From positions 1 through 38,910 of the IMG/VR virus record IMGVR_UViG_3300044844_000082: a stretch of 38,910 bases of DNA. The stretch is one strand, 5' to 3'. The DNA is from a virus. Its lineage: Duplodnaviria; Caudoviricetes. Of the stretch, positions 5,407-27,766 are shown one piece after another; the stretch's first letter is position 1, and each line of letters opens with the position of its first letter. Below the pieces are notes generated by a model. It did not search any database, had not been told where the DNA came from, and saw nothing but the letters and a program-made list of their open reading frames with translations. The position numbers were made by a program, and so were the translations under genes.

Positions 5407-5407
5407 A

Positions 5408-6474: not shown

Positions 6475-7155
6475 TTAAGTCCACTCAATATAGACGCTAC
6501 CGTTACCTCCTCCACTGGCCGCAGGTGCGTTTTCGCCACCGCCACCACCGCCACCACCTGCGCCGATACTTATAGCAATAGATGCTCCATAACCTGGGGC
6601 ATCGGCATCATTCCAATTCCATGTTTTAACAACTTTGCCACCAGCGCCTCCGGAATTACAACCAGTACCACCGCCAGCGCCGCCTCCTGATGTAACTGTT
6701 CCTCCAGAACCTCCTCCAGCAGCACCACTTGGTGGACAATAATCTTGACCACCGCCTCCTCCGCCAGTACCACCATTTGCAATTACGTTATTACTACTGT
6801 AGAAAGTTGTATTGCCACCAGAAGCTCCAGCCCCCCCACAATATCCATAAGCAAATCCATCGTTACCACAATAACCAGTTGCACCACCGCCCCCTGCATT
6901 TATTGTAACAGTAAGAGTTTCATATCTGGGTACAGAGAAATATTGTGTAGATCCGGTATAACTAAACGAATTATTGCCAGGTGTAACCCATCTTTTCCCA
7001 TAAGCGGTAGAAATACTTATTTGCCCAGATGGAACTCCTAATAATGTTCGAACATCAGCATCATTCAAAGATCTTTGCGAAGTAGAAGATCTTAAAATTT
7101 CTACAGAAATATTGGCAAAAGAAATAACACCAGAACCTGGTAAACCAGTAGTCAT
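6475..7155 (-). CDS. Glycine-rich fibre-tip adhesin, functional analogue of T2-type gp38
   Basis: N-terminal LPGSGVISFANI...VRTLLGVPSGQISIS.AYGK attachment module, then GGGG/GAGG repeats alternating with variable Cys/aromatic loops. It lies immediately after the S74-chaperone fibre. Confidence 0.75.
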   Translation of the reverse strand: MTTGLPGSGVISFANISVEILRSSTSQRSLNDADVRTLLGVPSGQISISTAYGKRWVTPGNNSFSYTGSTQYFSVPRYETLTVTINAGGGGATGYCGNDGFAYGYCGGAGASGGNTTFYSSNNVIANGGTGGGGGGQDYCPPSGAAGGGSGGTVTSGGGAGGGTGCNSGGAGGKVVKTWNWNDADAPGYGASIAISIGAGGGGGGGGENAPAASGGGNGSVYIEWT

Positions 7156-7158
7156 TTA

Positions 7159-9237
7159 TTAAATCCCTATTTTTAATTTCAATTCATCAATTTGTTTCTG
7201 CTGTTCTTTGATTGCTTCAATCAACAAAGCAACAATTCTATCATATTTAACCGCTTTAGTGCCGTCGTCTTTAGTTGCAACTACTTCAGGCAAAACCTTT
7301 TCAATGTTTTGAGCAATAACACCGACGTCATGTCTACGGATAAAGTATCCATCTTCACCACCACGAGCGTCCATGAATTCCTGGGTCCAATCGAATTCAA
7401 CGCCGTCGACTAACATAATCTTTTCAAGGGCGTTTTCGATGGGTTTTACGTTTTCTTTGAAGATGGCGTCTGAAGTATAATAAGCTGTGATGTTATTATT
7501 TGCTCTAATTTCGCCAGCAGTTCCGGAAGCAGCAGTACCAACACCAATTGAATTAAATTGTGAGTTCTGCGAAGTAGAAGTGAATGTTGCAGAGCTTCCA
7601 TCAATCGAGACGCCTGTAAGAGTTTGAGACCCTGTTGTTCTATTAATTGTCAGTGAAGTAGTACCAATAAACATTGTTTGATTTGTTGCTGCAGCGCCGA
7701 TCTCACCAAGAGTCCATGAAACAGCAGCAGATCCATCAACAGATTTACCAGTTGATCCGATAGTAATAGTTCTTGACGTACCCCATGTAGCAGTTGTAAT
7801 AGCAGCAGAACCATTGAAGGCGGAACCATTAATGTTTCTAGAAGTAGCCAATGTGGCTGCACTGTTGACGTTAAGATTTCCTTCAGTCTTACCATAAGCT
7901 GTTGTGGCATTATTGACGTTAAGATTTCCTTCAGCCTTACCATATGGTCCAGTACTATTACCAATTAAGGTCGTTCCTACGTAATATGATACTGCATTTA
8001 CAACAGTAGCATTGGCAGTAAATGCGGTTCCTACTGTATGACTAGCAGCGTTCATCGTTCCTGTATGATAAACGCCAGTGGCATTGGCAACAAGAGATGT
8101 TCCTACTGTATGCGAAGAACCATTAACTACGCCAGTATAAACCGGAAGATAAGCAGCGATATTAGCGTTTAATGTTGAATTGAGTTGGTAAGAAGAAGCT
8201 GCTGTACCGCCTAAATTGGTTGAGTTATTAGCAATTAATGCGCTGTTAACGTTAAGATTACCTTCGGACTTACCATTAACAAATGTTGTATTGTTAGATG
8301 AAATCGTTCCAATATATGTTGCATTAACATGAACGCCAGTGGCATTAACAACTGCACCAGTTCCTGGAGTAACAAACAAACCTGTAGAATTGGCTGTAAT
8401 ACCATTATTAGCTAGAACTGACAATGTTCCAGAACTTGTGATAGCGCCGCCAGTTAGACCGTTTCCGGAACCAACAGATGTTACAGTTCCTGCATTAACG
8501 TCGTCGACTGCCCAATAAGTGGCTGTACCATTAGAGTGAAGAACTTGGCCAGCGGTGCCGTAAGTACCATTAGCAGAAAGACCAGAACCTAACACTACGT
8601 TAGCATTATATGTATGAACGCCAGATATTGTAAATGCAGCAGTAGTATTAATAACGTTGGCTGGTATTTGAGCGTATGGAAGAACGCCTGTGGTTATATT
8701 AGTAGCATTGGTGTAAAAAGAACCAGGTTGGCTGTTTAGGTTAGTAGCATTAGTTGCCTGCACAGCACTGTTAACATTTAGAGTAGCTTCTGTTTTACCA
8801 TAAGGTCCAGTAGCATTACCGATTAATGTTGCGCCAACATAATATGAAACAGCATTAACAACAGTAGCATTAGCAGTAAAGGCAGTTCCAACAGTATGAC
8901 TAGCAGCATTAACGATACCAGTATAAACGCCAGTAGCGTTAGCAACAGTAGAAGTGCCAACTGTATGACTAGCAGCGTTCATAGTGCCAGTGTGATACGC
9001 ACCAGTAGTATTGGCGATAAAAGTTGTTCCGACAGAAACACTAGTGCTGGTATTAGCGAAACCAACAATCGTTGTATTTCCGAGATAAACATCCCCTAGA
9101 GTAGAAAGACGATGGGTGGGAGCCGAATTATTGATACCCACATTACCTGTAGCGGTAACAGTGACTGCTGTTCCTAGTAAGGTGGTATTTGAGCCTGTTT
9201 CTAGACCATTCTTGACGACGAAATTTTTATCTGCCAT
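7159..9237 (-). CDS. Tail fibre with C-terminal intramolecular chaperone (peptidase S74) domain, gp37-like
   Basis: TSDAIFKENV...FDW...GVIAQ..E.VLPEVV...V.Y..IVALLIEAIKEQQ..I..L S74 signature; repetitive shaft; N-terminal MADKNFVVKNGL. Confidence 0.88.
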   Translation of the reverse strand: MADKNFVVKNGLETGSNTTLLGTAVTVTATGNVGINNSAPTHRLSTLGDVYLGNTTIVGFANTSTSVSVGTTFIANTTGAYHTGTMNAASHTVGTSTVANATGVYTGIVNAASHTVGTAFTANATVVNAVSYYVGATLIGNATGPYGKTEATLNVNSAVQATNATNLNSQPGSFYTNATNITTGVLPYAQIPANVINTTAAFTISGVHTYNANVVLGSGLSANGTYGTAGQVLHSNGTATYWAVDDVNAGTVTSVGSGNGLTGGAITSSGTLSVLANNGITANSTGLFVTPGTGAVVNATGVHVNATYIGTISSNNTTFVNGKSEGNLNVNSALIANNSTNLGGTAASSYQLNSTLNANIAAYLPVYTGVVNGSSHTVGTSLVANATGVYHTGTMNAASHTVGTAFTANATVVNAVSYYVGTTLIGNSTGPYGKAEGNLNVNNATTAYGKTEGNLNVNSAATLATSRNINGSAFNGSAAITTATWGTSRTITIGSTGKSVDGSAAVSWTLGEIGAAATNQTMFIGTTSLTINRTTGSQTLTGVSIDGSSATFTSTSQNSQFNSIGVGTAASGTAGEIRANNNITAYYTSDAIFKENVKPIENALEKIMLVDGVEFDWTQEFMDARGGEDGYFIRRHDVGVIAQNIEKVLPEVVATKDDGTKAVKYDRIVALLIEAIKEQQKQIDELKLKIGI
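7865..7944. repeat. 48-bp-period tandem duplication encoding YGK.EGNLNVN
   Basis: ttgacgttaagatttccttcag(t/c)cttaccata occurs at 7865 and 7913. Confidence 0.85.
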
Positions 9238-9319
9238 GGTTCCCTGTCCCCTATGGTGTTGTTTTTATAATATTTAGTCATATCGAAGGTTAGATTGCTC
9301 GCTCTATGTTGGAAATAGA

Positions 9320-9499
9320 TTATTTAATGACTTTATCAGCCAAAGGTCCATCTGGGCGTGGAGCTCTCAATTGAGCGTCTGCCTGTTTCTGAACCTCTGT
9401 GAAAGTTACTAGAACAGTTTCTAATGGCAACTTTGAAAGACCAAGCATAATTACATTTAGTTGATCGATTGTCAATTCAAGTTTAATATTCTTATCCAT
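9320..9499 (-). CDS. Small fibre-associated helical protein (59 aa), below the ORF-track cutoff
   Basis: Read by hand as MDKNIKLELTIDQLNVIMLGLSKLPLETVLVTFTEVQKQADAQLRAPRPDGPLADKVIK*, with an AGGGA RBS. The IKLELT..N.I...L.KLP pattern is typical of small ORFs next to phage fibre genes. Confidence 0.8.
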   Translation of the reverse strand: MDKNIKLELTIDQLNVIMLGLSKLPLETVLVTFTEVQKQADAQLRAPRPDGPLADKVIK

Positions 9500-9511
9500 A
9501 AGTTATTCCCT

Positions 9512-9889
9512 TCAGTTATTGCTAGTTACTGTATTTGATACAGGCGTTGAATTTGTTACTGGAGCCCAAGGTAGAGAGTTATCCACAACTGGGTTCTTTT
9601 TCTCGTCAATCTGTTTCTGAATTACTTCGTTTACATGATTCTCATAAGTGTCAACAACCACTGCTTTGATCCAAGTAAGAACGTCATTTTCAGTCAAATC
9701 TGAAAATGGAATGAAAGAAGTATTAGCTGGCATATTATTAGAAGAAAATGGAGTTGCTCCAGAAAATTCTCCAACAAGATCGCCATCGGTTCCTATTTTC
9801 TTCCAATATGTCTGCACGACAACATCAGAAGTATTAGCAACAGTTGTAGTTTTTAGTCCAGTTACTTTCCATGTATATGATACTGCCAT
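9512..9889 (-). CDS. Small fibre-associated protein, paralogue of 12824..13150
   Basis: Pattern MA..Y.W.V..L...DVV...W...FIPFSDLTE.DV..W...I...KNP....LPWA, shared with the paralogue. Confidence 0.8.
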   Translation of the reverse strand: MAVSYTWKVTGLKTTTVANTSDVVVQTYWKKIGTDGDLVGEFSGATPFSSNNMPANTSFIPFSDLTENDVLTWIKAVVVDTYENHVNEVIQKQIDEKKNPVVDNSLPWAPVTNSTPVSNTVTSNN

Positions 9890-9923
9890 TTTAATCCTCG
9901 TAGTTTATGTTTTAGGTTATTTA

Positions 9924-10163
9924 TTATAATCCTAATGCTTGTTTTAATTCATCAATAGTCAGACCAGCACGCTGCAGTTTTTCCTGAACTGTTGGTTCTG
10001 GTAACGGTTCTGGTAATGGGTCAGGATCTTCTGGCGTGTTGCCTTTTTCTAACCATGCCTGATATTCAGCCCATTCTTCTTCGTGTTCTGGACCAATAAT
10101 CATATTGTCAGTAAGTCTGACTACTGCTTCTGTATCAAATCTTGATCTATAATTTAATGCCAT
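9924..10163 (-). CDS. Putative tail-fibre assembly chaperone
   Basis: EYQAWLEKGNTPEDPDP motif and C-terminal EKL..AGLT.DELK.ALGL; start overlaps the stop of the 885-aa fibre. Confidence 0.65.
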   Translation of the reverse strand: MALNYRSRFDTEAVVRLTDNMIIGPEHEEEWAEYQAWLEKGNTPEDPDPLPEPLPEPTVQEKLQRAGLTIDELKQALGL

Positions 10164-12820
10164 TAGTTATATCCGTATATTCTTACTGTTCCAGATATAT
10201 TGCCTGAATCAGAATATATCTGGAAACCTGTGATTGCTACTTGAGAACCTGTATACCATCCACCGCCTTGAACTCTTGCTGCATAACCTGTTGTATAAGT
10301 AGGACCGCATAGATTGTATTGGTATGCTTTATTAGTATTCGTGTTGTTCGTATTATATATTGTAAATGTTCCACTCATACCGGTGCCACCAGTTGCAGCA
10401 GTAATAAAATAAGCAGGATATGTCATATATATGAACGTTCCCGAAGATGAATGACCGCCAGAACTGTTGTTGTTAAAATACGTAAAGACTGCATTATAGT
10501 AGTTACCAGTCAAGAACGCACCACCACCATGTAGCTGCATACAAAGCGTTCTGGATTGTGTTATTGGAACCAAACTGTCAAATTCAATTTCATAACTACG
10601 ATAACCAGATAGCGATGTATAGTTTAGAGTAGCAACATTGGTACCAGTAACAGTGGCAACAAGTGTTCTAGAACCAGAACCTGTAACAGATAGATTACCA
10701 CTAAAGCTGGCATTACCAGAAGAATCAATAGTAAGTCTGGTAGAACCATTACTACGAATATAGAAAGGAACAGCCGAGTCTGTTCCAACGCCGCCTGCAG
10801 TTCCATCAAACCACAATGATCCCCATTGAGAGTTCTGTGCGCCATTGGTAAATTGTAGAATAGATGCTGTAGCGCTTGAACCACCGCCTGGATAAATTCT
10901 TACGCCATAGTTACCACCACCAGTTCTAGCAATAAGACCGTTAGAATCGATGGTATGTAGTCCAGCAAATGTGGCAGTATTGAATACAGACGAAGAAGCA
11001 GGATCACAATAATAAGCGCTGTTTCCACTATCATAGAATATCGGAGCCCAAAGGTTTCCGCACTGGAATGATTCGTATGCATTACCAGGATTGTTCAAGA
11101 TACTAATTTGACCAAGTGAACTCATAGCAATCTGTGATGCTACACGACCGCCCCAATGGAAACCAATACGTGGTGCATATGACCAAGAATCTGTTTGTGC
11201 GCCACCAAAGTTATATTCACGAACTTCGATGGCTGCTTGAGAGTAAGATGCTGCTAACTGGTTACTAGCCACACCACCTTCAATCATTATATTATTAAAG
11301 TTTGAGGTTGATGATGGGTCAACATAATATGCTGTGTTATTTGAATCATAGAATATTGGTGCACGCCAATCGGTAGAAGCCTGACCAGTACCATCCCAAG
11401 TTAGGTTACCATCGCCACCAAATCTTAGGACCTTTGTTCCACCGCCGCCTGTGAATGTTCTTAGATTAGCAAAAGAATTGTTGGCGCCATTACCTGTGGA
11501 TGGATAATAATGCACATATGTGTTTGTGGAATCATACATATTAGTATAATAATGCTGCGACATAACAAATGCGGCAGAAGAGAAGTTCCATCCACCTGTG
11601 ACTGAAGCAGATTCTGCTTTTCTTGGGTAATCAGTAGATACGTATGTTCCAAGATAAGAAGAATTGTTAGCAGTTGGCCAAGTACCGGAAGCGTTTGAAG
11701 CATCAGTAAATGCTAAATCTTTATATGTGCTATAAGCAGAGGTGTTACCTGTTGTTAAGTTTGACCATGCTGCTTGATAAACACGAACACCAATAGCAGA
11801 CTTATTAAACATTAAAAGGTTATCTGATCCCCCAGAAGAATCAGAATAACTTCTCATATGAAGGAAGTCGGCCCATGGTGAAGTATTATTGTTATTAAAA
11901 GAAGTAAATCCAAAACGAAGAGTTTGTGAAGGAAAATCATTTGCTATGATAATTCTATCATCAATCCTTAAAAGCACATTAGCATAAAGAGAACTGTTAA
12001 CGTTCAGATTACCTTCTGTCTTACCATTGACGTAGGTAGTATTATTAGCAGATAATGTTCCAATATATGTTGCATTAACATGAACGCCAGTAGCGTTTAC
12101 AACTGATCCAGTTCCTTGTGTTACGAATAAACCATTAGTATTTGCTGTTATACCGCTGTTTGCTAAAACAGAAACAGTTCCTGTTGTCGAAATAGTACCA
12201 CCAGTAAGACCGTTACCAGTTGCAACAGAAGTTACTGTACCTCCTGAATTATCATCAGCCGCCCAATATATAGAAGAACCGTTAGAGTGTAAAACTTGAC
12301 CAGCAGTTCCTAGACCACCATTAGCATAGATGCCAGCGCCGGCAGAAACTATCAATTCACCAGCAGCGCCAATACTAACATTAGCAGTTGTCGTTAGACC
12401 AGAGGAATTAGCAGTAAAAACAGACCCAACAGTATAAGAAGCAGCATTAATTGTTCCAGCAACAGTCAGACCGTTTAGATTTGATGTTCCCGCAGCGTCT
12501 ACATAATAAGCTGTATTGTTGGAATCGTAGAATAATGGAGCACGGAAATCCGAAGTAGCAAAAGCTGTTCCTTGAACATGTAACTTCTGTGTTGGCGCTG
12601 TGTTACCGATACCAAAATTACCATTGGCAACAGAATAAGCAGCAGTGCCAATGGTAAATGTATTGGTGGTAGTAGAATTAATAGAGACAGACGTTGCATT
12701 CAATGATGCATTTACTGTCGAGTTACCAACAGTAATAGATCCAGACACCAACAGATTATTGGTAGAAGGATCAACAGTTATTAACTGACCTAGATCGCCT
12801 AATTCTCTATTTTGTGCCAT
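10163..12820 (-). CDS. Tail fibre / receptor-binding protein (885 aa)
   Basis: GNFGIG repeat, three APIFYDS.N.AYY.D-type repeats, and a C-terminal beta-sandwich head ending ITGFQIYSDSGNISGTVRIYG. Confidence 0.85.
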   Translation of the reverse strand: MAQNRELGDLGQLITVDPSTNNLLVSGSITVGNSTVNASLNATSVSINSTTTNTFTIGTAAYSVANGNFGIGNTAPTQKLHVQGTAFATSDFRAPLFYDSNNTAYYVDAAGTSNLNGLTVAGTINAASYTVGSVFTANSSGLTTTANVSIGAAGELIVSAGAGIYANGGLGTAGQVLHSNGSSIYWAADDNSGGTVTSVATGNGLTGGTISTTGTVSVLANSGITANTNGLFVTQGTGSVVNATGVHVNATYIGTLSANNTTYVNGKTEGNLNVNSSLYANVLLRIDDRIIIANDFPSQTLRFGFTSFNNNNTSPWADFLHMRSYSDSSGGSDNLLMFNKSAIGVRVYQAAWSNLTTGNTSAYSTYKDLAFTDASNASGTWPTANNSSYLGTYVSTDYPRKAESASVTGGWNFSSAAFVMSQHYYTNMYDSTNTYVHYYPSTGNGANNSFANLRTFTGGGGTKVLRFGGDGNLTWDGTGQASTDWRAPIFYDSNNTAYYVDPSSTSNFNNIMIEGGVASNQLAASYSQAAIEVREYNFGGAQTDSWSYAPRIGFHWGGRVASQIAMSSLGQISILNNPGNAYESFQCGNLWAPIFYDSGNSAYYCDPASSSVFNTATFAGLHTIDSNGLIARTGGGNYGVRIYPGGGSSATASILQFTNGAQNSQWGSLWFDGTAGGVGTDSAVPFYIRSNGSTRLTIDSSGNASFSGNLSVTGSGSRTLVATVTGTNVATLNYTSLSGYRSYEIEFDSLVPITQSRTLCMQLHGGGAFLTGNYYNAVFTYFNNNSSGGHSSSGTFIYMTYPAYFITAATGGTGMSGTFTIYNTNNTNTNKAYQYNLCGPTYTTGYAARVQGGGWYTGSQVAITGFQIYSDSGNISGTVRIYGYN

Positions 12821-12823
12821 TTA

Positions 12824-13150
12824 TTATGCCCAAGGAAGTGGTGGTGTTACTACAGGTGGGTTCTTCTGGCCAGCAATAGCAGAAGCCAATGAAGTTTCAA
12901 ACTCTGTAATCTTTTCTTCGCCTATAGCTGCCTCGAGCCAAGCAACAACGTCGTCTTTTGTTAGATCAGCATAAGGTTTAAAATTCTTCAAACTGTCAAC
13001 GTTCAAAACCTGAGAACCATAAACGTCGGCATAATAGTCGCCGTCTTTGGCTGTGTATCTCCAATGAATGTTGAAAACAACGTCAGTCTTTTTATCTTTT
13101 TCTGGGTAGCATTCAAGCTGAGAAACAACCCAATCATATACAATTGCCAT
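12824..13150 (-). CDS. Small fibre-associated protein, paralogue of 9512..9889
   Basis: MAIVYDW...DVVFNIHW...FKPYADLTKDDVVAWL...KNPP...LPWA; AGGAG RBS. Confidence 0.8.
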   Translation of the reverse strand: MAIVYDWVVSQLECYPEKDKKTDVVFNIHWRYTAKDGDYYADVYGSQVLNVDSLKNFKPYADLTKDDVVAWLEAAIGEEKITEFETSLASAIAGQKNPPVVTPPLPWA

Positions 13151-13166
13151 GTTTTACTCCTATGTT

Positions 13167-13418
13167 TTAATTATTTAGTGGTGTGTTCATGGATGCTTGG
13201 TATGCTTCAAGAACTTCTTGAGTCCAGGCGACATTAGCAATATCTTGAACATTCTGAGGCATCTCTGAAATGTCTGAACCGGGAGCAAAAGACCAACGGT
13301 GATAGGTCTGAGCGATCTGTTCGCCGTCACGAAGGACTCTGGTAGCCTCTCTAACGAGTAGGGTGCCATTCTCGGTGACTGTGATTTGATCAATTACTTT
13401 TGTTTCTGTTAGTGCCAT
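13167..13418 (-). CDS. Small partner (putative chaperone) of the DDYEEGTWTP-type fibre
   Basis: MALTE..IDQI.V...VREAT....DG..I..TYHR...PG.DIS...V..IA...WT..V..AY pattern, directly downstream of the 552-aa fibre. Confidence 0.75.
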   Translation of the reverse strand: MALTETKVIDQITVTENGTLLVREATRVLRDGEQIAQTYHRWSFAPGSDISEMPQNVQDIANVAWTQEVLEAYQASMNTPLNN

Positions 13419-13440
13419 TGTAATTACCTTTCTGTGTCCG

Positions 13441-13461
13441 ACTACGCCAATCCAGCGTAGT
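13441..13461 (-). promoter_or_regulatory. Intergenic RNA hairpin with GGAUU loop
   Basis: Perfect 7-bp inverted repeat ACTACGC/GCGTAGT. The mRNA reads ACUACGC-UGGAUUG-GCGUAGU followed by CGGAC. No U-tract follows. Confidence 0.6.
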
Positions 13462-13470
13462 TAATTAGGT

Positions 13471-15129: not shown

Positions 15130-15156
15130 TTAATAACCTTATTGTTTTTTAAATAT

Positions 15157-15435
15157 TTAGGTATTGGATACTGGAACAGCGGCTAGTGCTTCTTCGTTTC
15201 TCTGTGCTGCTGTCTTAACCCAACCGTTAGCAAAAGCAGCGGCTACGATTTCATCTTTTGAACCAGGAATGGACTGCCCAGCCTCTAGGAACTTCTCAAC
15301 TGCAACCTTAACGATCTCGTCAATAGCAATACGAGCACGTTCGTGAGCGGCATTCTGAATCCAATCATCAACAGAAGCGGCTGCATACTGCATTGCCTTA
15401 TCTTCTGTTTCTGTGTATTCAACTGTGTATTTCAT
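15157..15435 (-). CDS. Small partner (putative chaperone) of the C1q-tipped fibre (92 aa)
   Basis: Start reset to ATG 15435, preceded by AAGGAGA. Sequence includes WIQNAAHERARIAIDEI...GWVKTAAQRN. Confidence 0.75.
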   Translation of the reverse strand: MKYTVEYTETEDKAMQYAAASVDDWIQNAAHERARIAIDEIVKVAVEKFLEAGQSIPGSKDEIVAAAFANGWVKTAAQRNEEALAAVPVSNT

Positions 15436-15446
15436 AATTTTCTCCT

Positions 15447-18401
15447 TTAACCTAATAATGCGTAACTTGCCCAAGCAGCAGCCAAAGCAGCAGGGCTTGG
15501 ACTGTCATGATTGAAATTAAATTGGACATAATCGCTTGCCGCTAGATACCTAATATGAGATAGTGATGCGCCAAATGCTTTACCACCTGATGTATCATAA
15601 GCCCAACTCTCAACAACAGTTGAACCATTATGTAATAACGATATATTAAAATCTGAACCACCAGTACCAGCGGTTCTTCCGATACAAGTAAATAGATAAT
15701 AACCAGCAACAGGAGCAGTGAGTCTATAAGTAGATGTATTCCAAAGTGTAAATCTTTCTTGATTGACTGTAGCAAAAGGAATTATGTTTCCTCTTGTAAG
15801 AGTTCCTGACCATGATACAGATCCCGCTGGCTGATACGGAGTAGTAATACGGCCTGATCCATCAATCTGCATACGAACAGCACCAGCAGAATGATCATAT
15901 ACTTGGAAGTTCCCACCATCAATACGAATACCACGTGTATCGCCACTATTTTGACAAACGAATCCAGAAATACCCGCTCCAGCAGCGCTATTTCTTGCCA
16001 ATACAAAATTGGTTCCGTTATTATGAACTTCTAATCTACCATAAGCAGGAGTAGATGTGCCAATACCTACGTTACCGCCAGATGTTATTCGCATTCTTTC
16101 ATAAGCAGTTCCGTCTTGTGTAGTCCAGAAACTTAATCTAGCATCTTGAGTTGATGCTGTAGTATTCCATGAACTATCACCATCAGCAACAACTCTTGCC
16201 ATTTCAACAAGAGTGCCACCAGATGATGTTCTTGATTGAAATGTGATGCCAGCGCCGTAACCGTTTGTTCCACCTTCTAGTAAAAGTTGTGGTGCGTCAC
16301 TAACAGAACCAGAAGCAAAAATATGTAATTTTTTAGATGGTGATATTGTGTTTATACCGAAATTACCGGACGCATCAATTCTTCCACGTTCAATTTCATT
16401 AATACCAAATAATAAATTGTTACTACTGTTTGTAGTAACCATACCATTACCTTGTAGTATGAAGCTATTACCAGATTGGATAGTGTCTCCTGCGTATATC
16501 TTACCGTTTACTTGTAATTTTCCATATTGAGGATTAGTAGTACCAATACCAGTGTTACCATTACCATCAATATAAAAAACAGATCCACCACCAACATTAG
16601 AAATTTGAAAAGAGTTAGCTGCTGGAGAACCTAACCAAATTCCATTAGTAGAACTATTATATCTCAATCCAATAGCATATGCTTCGCTAGATGGTGCGAA
16701 TTGTGCTCTACCACCATTCAAATCGAATTTGAAAGCAGGGGAGTTAGTACCAATACCTACTTTACCATCAGTTTTAACAGTTAAACCATAACTCGAAGAG
16801 GTATCACCATACAAGGTTATAGAATTACTTCCTGTGATCCAGCCATCTACGTTTTGTAAACGAATATTACCACCATTGACTGTGAATTTATATCCAGCTA
16901 ATGGTGTTGTACAAGCTATACCAACGCTACCATTAGCTACAACATATAACGATGAACCAATAGTAAAAGTATTAGTAGCAATAGCATTAATGCTTGCAGG
17001 ACCAGTTCCAAAAGAAACATTAGAACTACTATTAGAAATAGTAAGAGTAGTTCCTGTAATAACAACATTTGATGTTGAATTACCAATTAATAAAGTAGAA
17101 CCATTAAGAGCAATATTACCAGCAGTGATTTGAGTATTAACAGTGCTATTACCAACTGTGATACTATCAGAGCCAATAGTTACATTAGAACCAACAGTAA
17201 TAGCATTAGCGCCAAGACCAACAGTTGTTTGATAACCATAAATGTCAATGATATTACCATTGCTTGGAGTGGTATAGAATCCAACGTTAGCTCCTGAAGT
17301 AATAGCAACATCTGTATTTGGCGCTTGTTTAACACCGTTTAAAAACACCAATAGAGTATTTGGTATATAACCGCCAGATATAGCAAAAGAATTAGCAGTT
17401 CCGTTGGCTGTGATCTGCTGATTAACAACAGTATTAACTCCTGTAGAATATAATCTAGATGGACCAATAACATCTATCAAAGAGCCGTTTGAAGGTGCTG
17501 GAGAAATTACAAAATTTGTTCCTGATGTTACTGTAACTTCTGAACCATTACGAAGCAACACACCATTAAGAAAAACTGAAATAGAATTGGGGATGTATCC
17601 ACCAGCTACAGCGAATGAAGTGGTTGATCCATCGCCTGTGTATTGTAGCTGTAATGGAAGAACGCCGCCAATTGGAGTAAACCAATATGTAGAAGAACCA
17701 TTAGTAGCAAGAACCTGACCATTAACACCAAGAGTTCCGTTGGAATAGATACCAGCACCATTAGCAAGAATTAGTTCGCCAGAAGTTTCAATACTAAGGT
17801 TTCCGGAAATAGAAGTTGCGCCTTCAACTCTTAGTTTATGTGCAGGAGTAGTGTTACCAATACCAAAATTACCACCGTTAAGAAACCTAGCAATTTCCGC
17901 CATAGATGTGCCATTGTTGGCATAAAAAATCAACGGAGCATTGGATGAATAGGGTAGTGATAATATTGATGCAGTACCGACACCCTGATTTTGAAATATT
18001 ACACCACCGTCACTAGTTCCGCCGGCATTCAGAACTATTCCTGCTCTACCTGCTCCATTATTTTTAACTTGAATATAATGATTGCTACCTGTATTCGCTT
18101 GAATGTCTAGTCGGTAGCTTGGAGTTGAAGTACCAATACCAACATTACCATTGGCAACCACATACATGGTTGTGCCAAATGTGGATGTGTTAGTTGTAAC
18201 GTAAAGGGTATTAATGTTGGCTGTATTTGATACGCTGAGGTTAGTTAGATTAGCGCCAGTTTCCCAAACATTGGTACCATCCGAAGAGAACAGTTTTCTA
18301 TCTGTAAGATTTAAACCAAGTTCGCCGATCGCCAGCGTGGATGTATTCGGTACTTTACCTGCGACTGATGATCGACGCAGTTTGAAAATTGTATTTGCCA
18401 T
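15447..18401 (-). CDS. Tail fibre (984 aa) with N-terminal KLRRS..GELG module, two internal beta-sandwich repeats and a C-terminal C1q-like head
   Basis: MANTIFKLRRSSVAGKVP...GELGLN..DRKLF; a duplicated F...GGYIPN...VFLNGV...PSNG..ID domain; many G.(V/F)GIGT..P repeats; C1q-type RLTAPVAGYYLF...L.ASDYV. Confidence 0.87.
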   Translation of the reverse strand: MANTIFKLRRSSVAGKVPNTSTLAIGELGLNLTDRKLFSSDGTNVWETGANLTNLSVSNTANINTLYVTTNTSTFGTTMYVVANGNVGIGTSTPSYRLDIQANTGSNHYIQVKNNGAGRAGIVLNAGGTSDGGVIFQNQGVGTASILSLPYSSNAPLIFYANNGTSMAEIARFLNGGNFGIGNTTPAHKLRVEGATSISGNLSIETSGELILANGAGIYSNGTLGVNGQVLATNGSSTYWFTPIGGVLPLQLQYTGDGSTTSFAVAGGYIPNSISVFLNGVLLRNGSEVTVTSGTNFVISPAPSNGSLIDVIGPSRLYSTGVNTVVNQQITANGTANSFAISGGYIPNTLLVFLNGVKQAPNTDVAITSGANVGFYTTPSNGNIIDIYGYQTTVGLGANAITVGSNVTIGSDSITVGNSTVNTQITAGNIALNGSTLLIGNSTSNVVITGTTLTISNSSSNVSFGTGPASINAIATNTFTIGSSLYVVANGSVGIACTTPLAGYKFTVNGGNIRLQNVDGWITGSNSITLYGDTSSSYGLTVKTDGKVGIGTNSPAFKFDLNGGRAQFAPSSEAYAIGLRYNSSTNGIWLGSPAANSFQISNVGGGSVFYIDGNGNTGIGTTNPQYGKLQVNGKIYAGDTIQSGNSFILQGNGMVTTNSSNNLLFGINEIERGRIDASGNFGINTISPSKKLHIFASGSVSDAPQLLLEGGTNGYGAGITFQSRTSSGGTLVEMARVVADGDSSWNTTASTQDARLSFWTTQDGTAYERMRITSGGNVGIGTSTPAYGRLEVHNNGTNFVLARNSAAGAGISGFVCQNSGDTRGIRIDGGNFQVYDHSAGAVRMQIDGSGRITTPYQPAGSVSWSGTLTRGNIIPFATVNQERFTLWNTSTYRLTAPVAGYYLFTCIGRTAGTGGSDFNISLLHNGSTVVESWAYDTSGGKAFGASLSHIRYLAASDYVQFNFNHDSPSPAALAAAWASYALLG

Positions 18402-18417
18402 TCTAGGCTCTCCTGGA

Positions 18418-18435
18418 ACTCAGTATATACCGAGT
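18418..18435 (-). promoter_or_regulatory. Intergenic hairpin centred on GUAUAUAC just upstream of the RBS of the 984-aa fibre
   Basis: The mRNA ACUCGGUAUAUACUGAGU forms a stem with one G-U pair and is followed by UCCAGGAGAGCCUAGAAUG. Confidence 0.55.
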
Positions 18436-18438
18436 GTA

Positions 18439-19032
18439 TTAAAATTCATCTGGCAATGTTGCCGGAGTTTCTTTCTTTTTAGGCTTTTTAGTTTCTTCTT
18501 CGCCTTTTAATTTTTGATTCTCAACATAAAGAGTATTTAGTTGGTCAACCTGATTGCGATATTCAGAATTCAATTCTGCAGATCTAGAATTACACAATGC
18601 TAATTCTTCTTCTAATTGTTTTATTCTGATTCCGGCATCATTTAATTTCAACTGCATCTCGCCTTGAGTTTCTTTAACTATTTTATCTTTTTCGGAAATA
18701 ATCTCTTGATTTTTCTGCTGAAGAGCAGTATAATTATTCTGTAACGATGATCTATCAGATTTAACTTTTTCTAACTCTTCATGAAGTTTATCTCTCTCCA
18801 CTGTAAGAGTCTCAATACTAACTGCTGCTTGACGCAGCATCTCGTTACCAATCTCTACCTGTCTCTGAGATTCCTCATAACGGGCATTAGCTTCATTGAT
18901 TGTGTTGTTGAGGGCAATAATTCTAACTTCAGCATCGATGTTCTTACGCATGAAATCTAGAAGCAATTGTTCTTGCTTCTGGATGTAATGTATTGTATAG
19001 AGGTCTACTTGTTCTTTTTTCTCTTCGTCCAT
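18439..19032 (-). CDS. Coiled-coil protein (197 aa), possible fibre assembly factor
   Basis: E/Q/K/L-rich heptads over most of its length; GAGG RBS; embedded in the fibre array. Confidence 0.7.
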   Translation of the reverse strand: MDEEKKEQVDLYTIHYIQKQEQLLLDFMRKNIDAEVRIIALNNTINEANARYEESQRQVEIGNEMLRQAAVSIETLTVERDKLHEELEKVKSDRSSLQNNYTALQQKNQEIISEKDKIVKETQGEMQLKLNDAGIRIKQLEEELALCNSRSAELNSEYRNQVDQLNTLYVENQKLKGEEETKKPKKKETPATLPDEF

Positions 19033-19049
19033 AATATATCCTCAGTTTA

Positions 19050-20888: not shown

Positions 20889-20916
20889 TTAAATAGCGCT
20901 CCTTGAAATTTTTATA

Positions 20917-20924
20917 TATTTATA
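20917..20924 (-). promoter_or_regulatory. T4-type late promoter TATAAATA
   Basis: Exact consensus in the gap upstream of the 612-aa gene, followed by an AAGGAG RBS. Confidence 0.8.
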
Positions 20925-20927
20925 AAT

Positions 20928-21197
20928 TTAGAAAACTCCACCATCTAAATCACCGTCTATATTACCAAAATCCAAATGTTTAACTTGATAGGTGTCTGTT
21001 GTATTATCGTAGATCAGTGTGGATCCATCAGTTCTTTGCGATAAACCAACATCCCTTAACTCATCAATTGTGTCAAGACCAGAAGAAATAATCGGAGTGT
21101 TCTTCAACGTCACAGGTATAGTTGTATCGATAACGCCAGCTGTGGCGTTAGTAGAAACCTTTACATTTCTTTTTCTCGAAACAACAACATTTACCAT
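20928..21197 (-). CDS. Small virion adaptor-like protein (89 aa) ending DGGVF
   Basis: IDELRDV...DGSTLIYD...Y motif and C-terminal LDGGVF; tightly packed in the operon. Confidence 0.7.
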   Translation of the reverse strand: MVNVVVSRKRNVKVSTNATAGVIDTTIPVTLKNTPIISSGLDTIDELRDVGLSQRTDGSTLIYDNTTDTYQVKHLDFGNIDGDLDGGVF

Positions 21198-21200
21198 TTA

Positions 21201-21533
21201 TTATCTCGTAACTTGTGGTGTGACCGTCACTATACCTTCGACTACTCTAGAAATAGCGTTAGTAGATGTTTCTCTTAATTCCACATCGTAAACATATCTT
21301 CCAGCAGTTAACAAATTAGTCTGATTAGCTGATAGGGTCAAAATGATTTGGCCCGAGTTAGTATTTATCGACGTGGTAAATGCAGTAGAATTAGAAGAAG
21401 TATACCATTTTCTCATCTGAGCGTTAGCCGTAAATCCGTCAAGATTTAGGACGTCTCCAGTGTCGTCGCTTAAATCTAATTCAACCGAAAAAGTGGTTCC
21501 TTGATCTATTACTAGATTAGCTTTTGTTGCCAT
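21201..21533 (-). CDS. Single beta-sandwich virion protein (110 aa), putative fibre attachment/collar adaptor
   Basis: NLVIDQGTTF...NL.G.TA.AQMRK...GQI.L.L...QT..L.AGRYVYDV...RVVEG.VTVTP.VTR pattern. Confidence 0.75.
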   Translation of the reverse strand: MATKANLVIDQGTTFSVELDLSDDTGDVLNLDGFTANAQMRKWYTSSNSTAFTTSINTNSGQIILTLSANQTNLLTAGRYVYDVELRETSTNAISRVVEGIVTVTPQVTR

Positions 21534-24500
21534 TATCCTACAATTGTCCTAACGTATTTAACTGTGGTATTAGAAGAAACTGGAGTAAATTTCAATGAAA
21601 CGTGAGACACGTTTGGAGCAGAGAAAGAGAAAGTTCCTACGTTTGTGTTTGTTGTGATTGTAGCAAATTCTGTCATATATCCTGCACCACGGTCGTGAGT
21701 TGTAAGGATCTTTGACATGTAACGGTTGTTAGCGACATTGTCGACAACGCTGATAATATATTCAGCTGCTGGATAACTAACCATTGAATAAGCATCAATT
21801 TCCTGGGCGGTTGTACCGGTAGTAGTAATTGATGCATTTGTGGTCGCTGATGCAATAATGCTCCAAACGCCATTTGCGTTTAAGAAATACTGACCGGAAG
21901 CGATAGCTGCTGAATTTGGAGTAGTTATAGATAGATTTACAGTTGAATTGGAAATCTTAATAGTTGAAGAATTCGCAACCAAATTAGCTGTAGCAGTGCC
22001 AATGAAAATATCAGTCAATACATCAATCGAAGCAGTGTTTATGCCGCTAGAATTGGCAGTGAACGATGTTCCAATATTCAACGATGTAGCGTTAATTACG
22101 CCAGTATAAACACCAGTTGAATTTGCTATTGTTGAAGTGCCAACGGTATGACTTGCAGCGTTAATAGTTGTGACATAAGCGCCGGAAGAATTAACAACTG
22201 AAGAACCGCCAACACTTATTGTATTACCAAAAATGGCGCTCTGAGTCACGTTTGCGTTAGTAACCCAAAGCAAAGCCCATTTGTTTGATGTGTTACCTAG
22301 AGTATAAGTGTCGTTTGTCGCTGGGACAACGTCGGCAGAAGATATACCAGTATATGTTAGATTACCAGAAACTTGTAGATCTCCAAGAACGTTCAGTTTA
22401 CCAGCCACATTAGCATAAGTGCCGTTGAATTGAGCATTTCCACCAATGGTCATAACACCAGTGTGATTTATGGTAGTGGCGTTAGCGACAAAAGAAGAAC
22501 CCACAGTAACAGAAGAACCGTTAACAACACCAGTATATACACCAGTCGAATTGGCAACAGTAGAAGTACCAACTGTGTGACTAGCAGCGTTTACTGTAGT
22601 AGTATAAACGCCAGTAGCATTAACGATGCTAGAAGTTCCGACAGTGATAGAAGAACCATTGACAACTCCAGTGTAAACACCAGTAGAGTTGGCTATTGTA
22701 GAAGTTCCGACTGTGTGGCTTGCAGCATTGACCGTTGAAGTATAAACACCAGTAACGTTAGCAATAGTACTAGTACCTACGGTAAACGAAGCAGCATTAG
22801 CAGTTGTCGCATACAGACCGCTGGAATTAGCAATTGTTGATGTACCAACTGTATGACTTGCTGCATTAACGCTAGTAGCATTAACAATACCTGTATAAAC
22901 CCCGCTAGAATTAGCAATTGTGCTAGTTCCGACAGTGTGTGCAGAAGCATTAACTGTTCCTGTTGTCCAGAAACCAGTAGTATTTACGATTGTAGCTGAT
23001 GTAACCTGTAAGGCTGTTGTATTAGCAGTAAACCCACCAGCGCCAGTAGTAATAACAGTGCTATTGACTATTGAAGTGCCAACTGTTAGGCTGATTGGGT
23101 CTAGATTAGCAGAACCAGAGTTGTTTGCCATAATAAGGCGATTAATGCTCTGAACAGAATAAACTGTAGTATTACCAACAAAATATGAAGAAGTATTAAT
23201 CTGTATATTAGCAGCCACTTTAACCATGCTAGTATTAGCAATAAAACTGTTAGAACCTGTGGTAATAACAGTGCTGTTTACTAGCGATGAACCAACAGTC
23301 AAGCTAATTGGGTCTAGGTTGGCTGTACCAGAACTATTTGCTACAGTAAGACGGTTTGTATCTAGATTAGAATTTGCAGTTGTATTGCCGACAAAATATG
23401 AAGATGTGTTAATCTGGATATTTGCAGCTATTTTAACGGCGCTAGTATTGGCAGTTATACCATTAGCTCCAGTAGTAATCACAGTGCTATTTACAACCGA
23501 GGTTCCGACTATCAAACCAATTGGATCTAGATTAGCGGATCCTGAGTTATTAGCGATAGTGAATCGATTGATGCTCTGATCAGAATAAACGCTGGCGTTA
23601 CCAACGAAGTAAGAAGATGTGTTAATTTGTATATTTGCTGCTACTTTTACTGCGCTGGTGTTAGCAGTTATGCCGTTAGCTCCAGTAGTAATAATGGTGC
23701 TATTGACCAGAGAAGTTCCAATAGTTAAACTGATTGGATTTAGGTTAGCTGAACCAGTAGAATTAGCAATTCTGATTAGGGTTGCATTAGATAGTGCATT
23801 AACAGTGCTGTTACCAACATCAACAGCTATAGCGTTTACCACAACATTTGAAGTAGCAACTGCAACATAGAACTGAGAAGTATTTGCTACAACGTTTGAA
23901 CCAACGGTAATAGCAGTTGTATTAGCAATCAAACCACCAGCACCAGTAGTAATGATTGTGCTGTTTACTAGGGAAGTACCTACAGCAAAACTTACGGGGG
24001 TGATATTAGCTGAAATAGTAGAATTGGCAACCTTAACTAATGAAGAGTTAGCAAAGGTGTTTATGGTTGTATTACCAACAAGAATTGAACTAGAATTAGA
24101 TAATACATTTGTTGTTGTATTACCTATAACTATTGTTGACGTATTCATGAATACGTTTGCACCAACGGTCACAGCCTGTGTATTAGCAAAAAGACTGTTA
24201 GAACCGACCATTGAAATAGAAGTGCTATTTACTAAAGAATTACCAATAGAAAGCGAATTAAAATTCAATACAGCTAGTGCAGCACCATTTGTGATTTGTA
24301 ATTGAGTAGAATTCGCTAATGTATTGACAGTAGTATTAGATCTGAAAAGTAATGTAGTGCTGTTAGCTATTAGATTGGTTGTGGCGGCACCAGTATGAGT
24401 TATGTATAGTTGGTTGGTATTAACAACGACATTAGAACCGACATAAACAGCATAAGTGTTTAGAGATTCAGAGTCCAAATAAGAATTTACTGTAGAATTA

Positions 24501-24772
24501 CCAATAGAAATCGCCGAAGTGTTAACATATGTAAAATTGTAAATATCAACAGTATTATTGCCAATAAGTAAAGAATTATTAACATGTGCTGTGGTGTTAA
24601 TAACCAAAGAATCAGCAGTAAATTTACCAGTAATAGCTGCATTACCAGCTGCCGCATTAGAACCATTTGCTGTAACGGCCAACACTGAGAAAGTGTAAGC
24701 CAGTTCATTGGTTCTATTACGCCAGAAATCAAAAGTGTTATTTGTTCCTACATTGGAAATATTTACTGTCAT
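21533..24772 (-). CDS. Long repetitive tail fibre (1079 aa), probably the proximal fibre
   Basis: N-terminal NTFDFWRNRTNEL anchor motif; 71-aa and ~22-aa repeats; C-terminal domain QEIDAY...AEYII...THD...TEFA...LKFTP...VKY.R. Confidence 0.85.
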   Translation of the reverse strand: MTVNISNVGTNNTFDFWRNRTNELAYTFSVLAVTANGSNAAAGNAAITGKFTADSLVINTTAHVNNSLLIGNNTVDIYNFTYVNTSAISIGNSTVNSYLDSESLNTYAVYVGSNVVVNTNQLYITHTGAATTNLIANSTTLLFRSNTTVNTLANSTQLQITNGAALAVLNFNSLSIGNSLVNSTSISMVGSNSLFANTQAVTVGANVFMNTSTIVIGNTTTNVLSNSSSILVGNTTINTFANSSLVKVANSTISANITPVSFAVGTSLVNSTIITTGAGGLIANTTAITVGSNVVANTSQFYVAVATSNVVVNAIAVDVGNSTVNALSNATLIRIANSTGSANLNPISLTIGTSLVNSTIITTGANGITANTSAVKVAANIQINTSSYFVGNASVYSDQSINRFTIANNSGSANLDPIGLIVGTSVVNSTVITTGANGITANTSAVKIAANIQINTSSYFVGNTTANSNLDTNRLTVANSSGTANLDPISLTVGSSLVNSTVITTGSNSFIANTSMVKVAANIQINTSSYFVGNTTVYSVQSINRLIMANNSGSANLDPISLTVGTSIVNSTVITTGAGGFTANTTALQVTSATIVNTTGFWTTGTVNASAHTVGTSTIANSSGVYTGIVNATSVNAASHTVGTSTIANSSGLYATTANAASFTVGTSTIANVTGVYTSTVNAASHTVGTSTIANSTGVYTGVVNGSSITVGTSSIVNATGVYTTTVNAASHTVGTSTVANSTGVYTGVVNGSSVTVGSSFVANATTINHTGVMTIGGNAQFNGTYANVAGKLNVLGDLQVSGNLTYTGISSADVVPATNDTYTLGNTSNKWALLWVTNANVTQSAIFGNTISVGGSSVVNSSGAYVTTINAASHTVGTSTIANSTGVYTGVINATSLNIGTSFTANSSGINTASIDVLTDIFIGTATANLVANSSTIKISNSTVNLSITTPNSAAIASGQYFLNANGVWSIIASATTNASITTTGTTAQEIDAYSMVSYPAAEYIISVVDNVANNRYMSKILTTHDRGAGYMTEFATITTNTNVGTFSFSAPNVSHVSLKFTPVSSNTTVKYVRTIVG
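22080..22960. repeat. Array of ~22-aa repeats (VNAASHTVGTSTIANSTGVYT) in the 1079-aa fibre
   Basis: About eight degenerate copies visible in the translation. The same unit recurs in the 692-aa and 612-aa fibres. Confidence 0.85.
23030..23990. repeat. 213-bp (71-aa) tandem repeats in the 1079-aa fibre
   Basis: The ANL(D/N)PI anchor recurs at 23101, 23314, 23527 and 23740, with exact 213-nt spacing. A more degenerate fifth copy lies N-terminal to these. Confidence 0.88.
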
Positions 24773-27727: not shown

Positions 27728-27750
27728 TTTAAATTTCTCCTAATAATCAT

Positions 27751-27758
27751 TATTTATA
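27751..27758 (-). promoter_or_regulatory. T4-type late promoter TATAAATA between the two DUF4815 halves
   Basis: Exact consensus in the 39-nt gap. Confidence 0.8.
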
Positions 27759-27766
27759 GTTATTTA

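What the first reader, a model, noticed from the sequence alone, without database searches (positions are those of the whole stretch)
6475..24772. Candidate plug-and-socket branched fibre tree: six fibres whose N-terminal tags and docking modules match in number
Seen in sequence: six large fibre genes replace the T4 gp9-12/wac block, and their ends fall into classes. (a) Two proteins end in LDGG(V/S)F (89 aa, 612 aa), and exactly two fibres begin with a K(R/L)RS...GEL-type module (612 aa, 984 aa). Each of these is the next fibre gene after a DGGxF protein. (b) The 984-aa fibre carries exactly two internal copies of a GGYIPN..VFLNGV domain, and the next two fibres begin with only a short helical tag (MSTLTNDLARLA, MAQNRELGDLG). 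(c) The 1079-aa fibre ends in a compact domain, and one fibre begins with a third tag type (MADKNFVVKNGL). Inference: 110-aa adaptor -> 89 aa -> 612 aa -> 984 aa, which branches to 552 aa and 885 aa; separately 1079 aa -> 692 aa -> Gly-rich tip. That would display four different receptor heads through three orthogonal docking pairs. Branched receptor-binding complexes are established for tailspike phages (G7C, CBA120), but I know of no description of these particular pairings.
Basis: partly seen in the sequence, partly recalled or inferred. Interest (0 to 1): 0.85.

Follow-up and report, generated by a model that had tools for sequence, protein, structure and literature searches.

The report
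T4-type joints build branched phage fibres
Six tail-fibre genes of an uncultured lake phage carry matching end pieces related to three protein joints of phage T4, so the proteins likely clip together into two fibre chains, one predicted to fork into two side branches; this extends a known design rather than being a new machine.

Summary
The three "new" pairings look like re-used T4 joints.
(a) The KRS…GEL module is the gp37 N-terminal/Mtd_N domain (hhalign 97.8%), and DGGxF resembles the end of gp36. Plug and socket counts match in 43 of 45 related gene blocks, from 0:0 to 4:4.
(b) The GGY…VFLNG domain has the CBA120 TSP4 XD2 fold (Z 9.8), a known branching site. Copy 1 travels with the MAQNRELG tag and copy 2 with the TNDLA tag. 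A predicted trimer–trimer complex scored 0.79 against 0.00 for controls, with the best run on copy 1, but the runs disagreed. Only 3 independent contrasts exist (p 0.25), and counts are not strict (3:1 occurs).
(c) The 1079-aa C-terminus has the gp9 C-terminal fold (Z 11.7); the tag resembles gp34 only weakly. Where this domain is missing, 7 of 9 relatives fuse the two fibres.
No binding has been measured, and the attachment points and orthogonality are unshown. The scan has found joints (a) and (c) before on other DNA. Verdict: new variant of a known kind.

The parts
21533..24772 (-). 1079-aa fibre: conserved N-terminal anchor of unknown partner, long Asn/Thr-rich shaft, gp9-like C-terminal domain. 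Orthologues run from 191 to 2011 aa.
21536..21850 (-). Socket (c): T4 gp9 C-terminal-domain fold, residues 975-1079
   Evidence: model pLDDT 93; Foldseek top hit 1qex gp9 E 1e-4, TMq 0.77; VIA Z 11.7, rmsd 2.2, 107 aligned to 9f4a_LA
21201..21533 (-). 110-aa adaptor; family includes the T5 collar protein that anchors the side fibres; likely root ring of chain 1
   Evidence: phrog_3304 E 5e-25; weak direct match to T5.135, hhalign E 0.002, probability 14.5%
20928..21197 (-). 89-aa linker: N-terminal anchor segment, C-terminal DGGxF plug (20931-20948)
   Evidence: fused to a 612-type end in L041
19050..20888 (-). 612-aa extension fibre: gp37-N/Mtd_N socket (about 20739-20888) and DGGxF plug (19053-19070)
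18439..19032 (-). 197-aa coiled-coil protein, usually found between the 612 and 984 types; likely a folding chaperone (inferred)
15447..18401 (-). 984-aa branching fibre: gp37-N socket, two XD domains, C1q-like tip (below the Pfam cut-off)
   Evidence: C1q E 0.008
17460..17657 (-). XD copy 1 (XD-a, residues 249-314); predicted seat of the 885-aa tag through residues 277-284 (FLNGVLLR)
17232..17429 (-). XD copy 2 (XD-b, residues 325-390); TSP4 XD2 fold; inferred seat of the 552-aa tag
15157..15435 (-). 92-aa small protein after the fibre; likely an assembly helper (inferred)
   Evidence: no family above cut-off
13471..15129 (-). 552-aa side fibre with TNDLA tag (15094-15129)
12824..13418 (-). 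83-aa and 108-aa (DUF7936) small proteins; likely assembly helpers (inferred)
10163..12820 (-). 885-aa side fibre with NRELG tag (12785-12820)
9320..10163 (-). 79-aa, 125-aa (DUF7936) and 59-aa (9320-9499) small proteins
7159..9237 (-). 692-aa fibre: FxVKNGL tag (9202-9237, weakly like the T4 gp34 start) and C-terminal S74 self-cleaving chaperone
6475..7155 (-). 226-aa Gly-rich protein; its leader family occurs only in blocks with an S74 fibre; likely tip protein of the 692-aa fibre
   Evidence: 10 of 27 against 0 of 18 blocks; no significant PDB sequence match
33215..33799 (-). 194-aa protein with gp9-type start and gp53-like C-terminus (outside the finding)

Best explanation
Six fibre genes carry end modules related to three joints of phage T4, and the fibre trimers likely clip end to end through them into two chains, one of which is predicted to fork. 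Chain 1 (inferred): a ring of the 110-aa protein holds the 89-aa linker, as the T5 collar holds its fibre. The two XD domains of 984 would each form a side-facing trimer: copy 1 takes the three N-terminal tags of 885 (predicted complex) and copy 2 takes those of 552 (co-occurrence only). Chain 2 (inferred): 1079 is a stretched gp9-type connector whose C-terminal domain holds the start of 692; after S74 cleavage 692 would carry the 226-aa Gly-rich tip. Shown here: the motifs, the sequence or fold links of the three sockets to T4-type domains, the matched counts and the fusions. Inferred: every binding step, the sites of attachment to the virion, and receptor binding by the tips.
For: Pair (a): socket profile against T4 gp37 residues 5-51, probability 97.8%, E 7e-13; Mtd chains in the PDB, E 3e-4; Mtd_N hit in 14 of 59 members at E up to 0.1. 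T4 gp36 ends DFGYY and binds the N-terminal region of gp37 (PMC3004832 passages). Counts equal in 43 of 45 blocks, including 0:0, 1:1 twice, 3:3 three times and 4:4; 80 of 90 plugs have a socket gene within 1 kb. L041 fuses an 89-type start to a 612-type end. Pair (b): the XD profile hits tandem copies in 9k4a (E 4e-8) and TSP4 (E 0.03); VIA Z 9.8, rmsd 1.4, 64 aligned to TSP4 187-250. NRELG tag in 6 of 8 blocks with an XD-a-group domain and 0 of 37 without; TNDLA in 2 of 2 with XD-b and 0 of 43 without. The tags persist while bodies change: 14 NRELG proteins have 10 unrelated head groups, 5 TNDLA proteins have 5; 103 of 105 library hits start at residue 1. Predicted complex of tandem XD x3 with 885(1-52) x3: score 0.79, best of 3 controls 0.00; the mark was reached by 116 of 157 solved and 2 of 215 mismatched pairs; partner pLDDT at least 83; runs agree in at least 0% of contacts; best run on copy 1. 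Pair (c): gp9 C-terminal fold; T4 long fibres attach coaxially to that domain. C-terminal domain and tag counts equal in 33 of 35 complete blocks, including five 2:2 and one 0:0. Of 90 distinct 1079-type starts, 81 have the gp9 domain, 7 instead run on into an S74-ended fibre, 2 have neither and none has both.
Against: No binding has been measured. Pair (b) rests on 3 independent contrasts for XD-a (same way 2.6, opposite 0, sign test p 0.25) and 1 for XD-b, so the Fisher p values (3e-6, 1e-3) overstate it. Counts fail in L031 and L141 (3 XD, 1 tag) and in L004 and L024 (XD-a-group domain, no NRELG tag). Many other XD copies (7 in L181, 3 in L068) have neither tag. The wider XD-a group has weak support (23-55), and the first XD of L015 falls outside it. 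The complex runs share as little as 0% of contacts, so the choice of copy 1 is not established, and the pass may reflect likeness to solved XD complexes. The XD fold is tied with T7-type fibre N-termini and neck proteins (Z 9.8, 9.5), and Foldseek gave no E below 0.001. Tailspike C-terminal domains score Z 10.8, within 1 of gp9; sequence support for gp9 is weak. The gp34 likeness of the tag is weak: probability 35%; 5.9 bits, where 30 of 1988 unrelated starts reach 6. Five internal gp9-like copies have no extra tag. The 1079 start did not match gp9 or gp10.
Confidence: 0.72

Rival explanations
1. The chains and the fork are real, but the sockets are not selective. Either XD copy takes either tag and either DGGxF end takes either cap, so virions carry mixtures, and gene order or assembly timing sets the layout.
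For: The complex runs disagreed on contacts. L031 and L141 have 3 XD for 1 tag. In L167 the linker's plug is followed directly by a 984-type cap, with no 612-type fibre. A non-cognate branching domain supported assembly in KP32 (PMC13352976 section 21), and the G7C XD2 had no known partner (PMC8825819 section 6).
Against: XD-b forms its own clade (support 99), and all 5 distinct genomes with TNDLA have it. L005 has only XD-a and only NRELG. In L038 two XD-a copies are each followed directly by an NRELG gene. The predicted interface lies on residues that differ between the two copies.
Confidence: 0.3
2. The serial joints (a) and (c) are real, but there is no fork. The XD domains are decoration or sugar-binding repeats, and 552 and 885 attach elsewhere on the virion or are not incorporated.
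For: XD repeats occur without these tags in many relatives. The fold also occurs in neck and anchor proteins. The phylogenetic test is not significant. Only part of the genome is in hand.
Against: No block of 37 without an XD-a-group domain has the NRELG tag; close kin lacking XD (L002, L011, L027) lack both tags. The predicted complex scored 0.79 against 0.00. XD domains are established branching sites.
Confidence: 0.15
3. The end modules are trimerisation or folding caps, and the gp9-like domain is a sugar-binding tip. Fibres attach independently, and the matching counts come from neighbouring genes moving together.
For: Tailspike C-terminal domains are structurally close to the 1079 domain (Z 10.8). 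Neighbouring genes are inherited together, and most blocks are 2:2 or 1:1 by shared descent.
Against: Fusions appear where the joint is missing. Extra plugs and sockets are gained together in separate lineages. Tags stay while bodies are swapped. In T4 the related domains are known joints.
Confidence: 0.08

Closest known systems
Phage T4 long tail fibre: gp9 socket with gp34, and gp36 with the gp37 N-terminus (PMC3004832; bioRxiv 10.64898/2026.03.06.709160)
   Same: gp37-type N-terminal cap preceded by a gene ending in a D-x-G-x-aromatic tail; gp9 C-terminal fold paired with a fibre starting with an F-x-x-x-x-G-L motif.
   Different: The gp36/gp37 joint is used twice in series and up to four times in relatives. 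The gp9 domain sits at the end of a 1079-aa shaft. No gp35 hinge was detected. The two joints are on separate chains.
Branched receptor-binding complexes built on gp10-like XD domains: CBA120 TSP4 (PMC8825819), KP32/K11 branching domain plus conserved peptide (PMC13352976), RaK2 (PMC10253068), phiKp24 (10.1101/2022.03.15.484430)
   Same: Tandem XD jelly-roll domains near the start of a primary fibre, with secondary fibres docking by short N-terminal segments. RaK2 was also modelled by counting XD domains against fibres.
   Different: No depolymerase family was detected in these fibres. The XD pair sits two joints out on a serial chain, not at the baseplate anchor. The two tag families (NRELG, TNDLA) were not matched to published peptides, and each tracks its own XD paralogue.
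T5 p132 collar anchoring pb1 (10.1101/2022.09.20.507954); branched LtfA/LtfB of DT57C (PMC4728585, search listing only)
   Same: A small adaptor gene of the same PHROG family is directly followed by the gene whose N-terminus it would hold.
   Different: T5 is a siphophage with the ring around p140; here the phage is T4-like and the ring's position (neck or baseplate) is unknown. The direct sequence match is weak.
Bordetella phage Mtd N-terminal domain (Pfam PF18454; PDB 1yu0-1yu4)
   Same: Same N-terminal cap family as the 612 and 984 starts.
   Different: Here it starts long shafts; the window member itself scores below the Pfam cut-off (13.6 against 26.3 bits).

Membership tests
T4 gp36-gp37 joint | Downstream fibre starts with the gp37 N-terminal (Mtd_N-like) domain | tested here: met
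   hhalign 97.8%, E 7e-13; PDB Mtd E 3e-4; tblastn hits to annotated distal long-fibre subunits
T4 gp36-gp37 joint | Upstream protein ends in a gp36-like terminal peptide | tested here: inconclusive
   T4 gp36 ends DFGYY; window ends DGGVF and DGGSF; bridging forms DLGTY and DFGGVA in relatives. Five residues cannot prove homology.
T4 gp36-gp37 joint | Physical binding of the two trimers | not tested
   The single complex job went to pair (b); needs a bench test
T4 gp9-gp34 joint | gp9 C-terminal domain fold | tested here: met
   Top hit in both searches: 1qex E 1e-4, TMq 0.77; Z 11.7, rmsd 2.2, 107 aligned; a tailspike domain is tied within 1 Z
T4 gp9-gp34 joint | Partner starts with a gp34-like N-terminal motif | tested here: inconclusive
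   hhalign probability 35%, E 4e-4; best of 11 T4 proteins but only 5.9 bits
T4 gp9 (whole protein) | gp9/gp10 N-terminal segment that binds gp7 | tested here: not met
   The profile of 1079-type starts gave no hit at the start of gp9 or gp10; the gp9-type start is on the 194-aa gene
XD-domain branched RBP systems | gp10 D2/D3-like (XD2/XD3) jelly-roll domains in the primary fibre | tested here: met
   Z 9.8, rmsd 1.4, 64 aligned to TSP4 187-250; profile hits 9k4a and TSP4; 9f4b_FA TMq 0.76
XD-domain branched RBP systems | Secondary fibre docks through a short conserved N-terminal peptide | tested here: inconclusive
   Predicted complex 0.79 against 0.00 with disagreeing runs; co-occurrence 6 of 8 against 0 of 37, but only 3 independent contrasts
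XD-domain branched RBP systems | Branches are polysaccharide-degrading tailspikes | tested here: not met
   No depolymerase family in Pfam or PHROGs scans of the six fibres; the heads were not folded
T5 p132 collar | Sequence relationship to p132 | tested here: inconclusive
   phrog_3304 E 5e-25; direct hhalign to the two T5 record pieces E 0.002 and 0.07; no T5 chain in the PDB profile search
T5 p132 collar | Twelve-membered ring holding the fibre's first 50 residues | not testable with these tools
   Needs a virion structure
T2/S16 gp38 adhesin tip | Gly-rich protein capping an S74-processed fibre | tested here: inconclusive
   Leader only in S74-positive blocks, 10 of 27 against 0 of 18; no PDB sequence match to gp38. 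The gp38 comparison is recalled.

The most novel reading that the evidence does not exclude
Tandem XD paralogues are orthogonal sockets: the few residues after the VFLNG motif read one 12-residue tag each. Together with the serial T4 joints and a T5-type collar standing in for fibritin, this makes the full fibre tree of uncultured aquatic T4-like phages readable from sequence and gives a kit of selective trimer-to-trimer connectors.
Probability: 0.35. Interest if true: 0.7.

Novelty: new variant of a known kind. Interest (0 to 1): 0.45.

Why it matters
If true, the host-recognition apparatus of abundant uncultured lake phages can be drawn from gene sequence: which fibre sits on which, and where a lineage gained or lost a branch. 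It narrows three T4 joints, known mostly at domain level, to short testable peptides. It also offers small trimer connectors for protein design. The principle itself (XD branching sites plus short docking peptides, serial fibre joints) is published, so the gain is in scope and specificity, not a new mechanism.

Tried and rejected
- Whole-protein searches missed the modules: the PDB search with 984 and the Pfam scans found neither socket. Profiles and folds were needed.
- PDB sequence searches with the gp9-like profile, the FxVKNGL tag profile, the 226-aa tip and the 984 head gave nothing significant. The adaptor profile hit only 26dk_M (E 0.002), which I could not identify.
- The idea that the 1079 start is a gp9/gp10 anchor was rejected.
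- A likeness of TNDLA to the T4 gp11 start scored only 6.0 bits and is not claimed.
- More independent XD/tag contrasts were sought, but the alignment queries were unusable and single-protein scans returned only the same or one close phage.
- A search of gp34 relatives gave only close T-even sequences.
- No RNA holder was listed.
- The literature search for DGGxF, DGGTF, FxVKNG, 'DGG motif tail' and 'PDB 26DK' found 0 papers. The search for T4-like cyanophage neck or collar cryo-EM listed 2 papers on other phages. The library is open-access only, and supplements were not opened.
- Rows left out of the 45 blocks: duplicates (L001 and other records of this phage, L028, L034; G044-G047, G049 and G083 were judged duplicates by gp13 identity and not extended), L018 (split over contig ends), L079 and L149 (no fibre block between adaptor and gp13), and all loci that do not reach gp13. 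The last were used only as extra positives and and the head-group part of 134.
Full report
Setting. The window is a 38.9-kb piece of a T4-like phage. On the minus strand it runs from baseplate genes (gp6, a gp7-like gene, a 194-aa gene with a gp9-type start, gp8, and two large genes of phrog_358) through the fibre block to gp13, gp14, gp15 and the small terminase. Near-identical DNA occurs in lake and freshwater samples. The adaptor's cultured relatives include Melnitz, HTVC008M and T4-like cyanophages.

Observation. Every stated motif is present in the stated number. The statement that these genes replace gp9 needs care, because gp9-like parts are present.

Comparison set. From four collection scans I extended loci to gp13 and kept 45 blocks including the window. 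Thirty-five run from the 71-aa gene to gp13; 10 are incomplete upstream. Several are close kin (L020/L061, L068/L078, L168/L177, L184/L189/L214, L031/L141). Dropped rows are listed under Tried and rejected.

Pair (a). The KRS…GEL start aligns with T4 gp37 residues 5-51 (97.8%) and with Mtd. T4 gp36 ends DFGYY, and trimeric gp36 binds the N-terminal region of gp37 (PMC3004832, passages). Plug and socket counts are equal in 43 of 45 blocks. Most are 2:2 by descent; the informative ones are 0:0 (L072), 1:1 (L167, L223), 3:3 (L023, L058, L069) and 4:4 (L038). The misses are L075 (1:2; its 72-aa gene ends IGGTY, outside my pattern) and L181 (2:3). I widened the plug pattern after seeing the data. 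Antisense frames give 0 of 1713 matches. L041 encodes one protein with an 89-type start and a 612-type end, as expected if the two are joined end to end.

Pair (b). The repeated domain folds with pLDDT 94 and matches TSP4 residues 187-250 (Z 9.8, rmsd 1.4, 64 aligned), tied with T7-type fibre N-termini and a neck protein. Foldseek lists TSP4 and a 607-aa chain of the KP1 baseplate (gp10-sized) but none at E below 0.001. XD2 and XD3 trimers of gp10 bind gp12 and gp11 (PMC8825819, abstract and section 6 part 1). In KP32 a branching domain and a short N-terminal peptide are both needed (PMC13352976, abstract and section 21). RaK2 and phiKp24 trees were proposed on the same logic (passages).

What is added here is a split by paralogue. 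Tag profiles grown from the window seeds give clean families (scores 35 or more against 10 or less). Copy 2 belongs to a clade (support 99) present in all 5 distinct genomes with TNDLA; the clade also occurs in 3 truncated loci where no TNDLA was seen. Copy 1 belongs to a clade (97) inside a weakly supported wider group. NRELG occurs in 6 of 8 blocks with that group and 0 of 37 without. Against this: only 3 and 1 independent contrasts (p 0.25 and 1), 3:1 ratios in L031 and L141, no NRELG in L004 or L024, and many XD copies of other clades with neither tag. The tags outlast their bodies (10 head groups among 14 proteins, 5 among 5), and 103 of 105 library hits begin at residue 1. The one complex job, tandem XD x3 with 885(1-52) x3, scored 0.79 against 0.00 for the best of 3 controls. 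The mark was reached by 116 of 157 solved and 2 of 215 mismatched pairs, counts that hold only roughly for this job. Partner pLDDT was at least 83, and runs agree in at least 0% of contacts. The best run puts tag residues 1-12 on residues 277-284 and 304-310 of 984, which is copy 1, the copy predicted beforehand from co-occurrence (note). The disagreement between runs means selectivity is not shown, and likeness to solved XD complexes may help the score.

Pair (c). The last 108 residues of 1079 fold with pLDDT 93. The top matches are T4 gp9 and residues 175-298 of a 303-aa KP1 baseplate chain (Z 11.7), with a tailspike C-terminal domain within 1 Z. T4 long fibres attach coaxially to this gp9 domain through the start of gp34 (bioRxiv 10.64898/2026.03.06.709160, passages and section 6). 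The FxVKNGL tag resembles the gp34 start only weakly. C-terminal domain and tag counts are equal in 33 of 35 complete blocks by pattern; one miss (L042) is recovered by the profile. Five blocks are 2:2 and one is 0:0; five internal copies have no extra tag. Of 90 distinct 1079-type starts (some are truncated repeats of one protein), 81 have the domain, 7 lack it and continue into an S74-ended fibre, 2 have neither and none has both. I take this as the best evidence for the 1079-692 link. The leader of the 226-aa protein occurs in 10 of 27 blocks with an S74 fibre and 0 of 18 without.

Roots. The 110-aa protein matches the PHROG family named for L-shaped fibre assembly and weakly the T5 collar gene. 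In T5 twelve p132 hold about 50 N-terminal residues of pb1 (10.1101/2022.09.20.507954, passages). The link to the 89-aa protein is by analogy and gene order only. The 1079 start is conserved but did not match gp9 or gp10, so its partner is unknown.

Tips. 984 ends in a C1q-like domain below cut-off; 552 and 885 have no Pfam match. Receptor binding is assumed, not tested.

Other papers seen: PMC5537660 and PMC12143355 (passages), PMC4728585 (search listing). Plattner 2019 was seen only as a reference. A search for the motifs found no paper (open-access library only).

Earlier scan notes reached the gp36/gp37 and gp9/gp34 readings on other genomes. I had formed these readings before looking and do not count them as support.

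Verdict. A real, coherent set of docking modules, each of a published kind, combined into two likely chains with one predicted fork. New variant of a known kind; interest 0.45. The open point worth testing is whether the two XD paralogues are selective.

Noticed in passing
L002 13267-21400, L003 12927-17509, L011 12725-20500, L027 13891-21050: A further candidate joint: 984-type fibres ending KxKLEE are followed directly by a gene starting MxxFxGNST in 5 of 5 loci (4 distinct genomes), and the start was seen only there.
   Followed up: partly
L004 14065-15703, L040 3552-4774, L042 13017-14215, L058 15748-19064, L081 3890-5611: Fibres ending in a greasy helix (AIALG type) are followed by a 105-120-aa protein and then a gene starting MAY(I/L/V)G, often with an N-terminal XD domain.
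   Followed up: no
L020 13244-17950, L061 13219-15993, L038 19362-27190: A third XD clade may go with an 'M..QKI' tag: L020 has both, its close relative L061 has neither, L038 has both.
   Followed up: partly
L069 23408-35800 (extended locus): Five genes start with an R(D/N/T/S)(L/V)S/A-type tag in a block with six XD domains of its own clade.
   Followed up: no
L008 12668-16013, L013 13327-16559, L022 11016-14200, L050 15619-21300: Fibres ending in a GPxTI…(R)xxIV module are followed by genes starting MSTLxV or MSEI; another candidate pair.
   Followed up: no
window 24995-31654: The phrog_358 protein (about 2,000 aa, single in L003, L007, L013) is in two genes here (1295 and 910 aa), as in L227 and L231.
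   Followed up: no
window 3290-3937: GIY-YIG/NUMOD3 homing endonuclease between gp13 and gp14.
   Followed up: no
window 4702-6190: A GDSL-like 249-aa gene and a 260-aa gene of phrog_7084 lie between the fibre block and gp13; relatives carry varying sets of small enzyme-like genes at this spot.
   Followed up: no
window 18439-19032: The coiled-coil gene between the two gp37-type fibres is kept in nearly all relatives at 63-197 aa; a gp57A-like chaperone role is a recalled analogy, untested.
   Followed up: no
L053 10331-11420: A 1079-type start directly follows the 110-aa adaptor gene, in the place usually held by the 89-aa linker.
   Followed up: no
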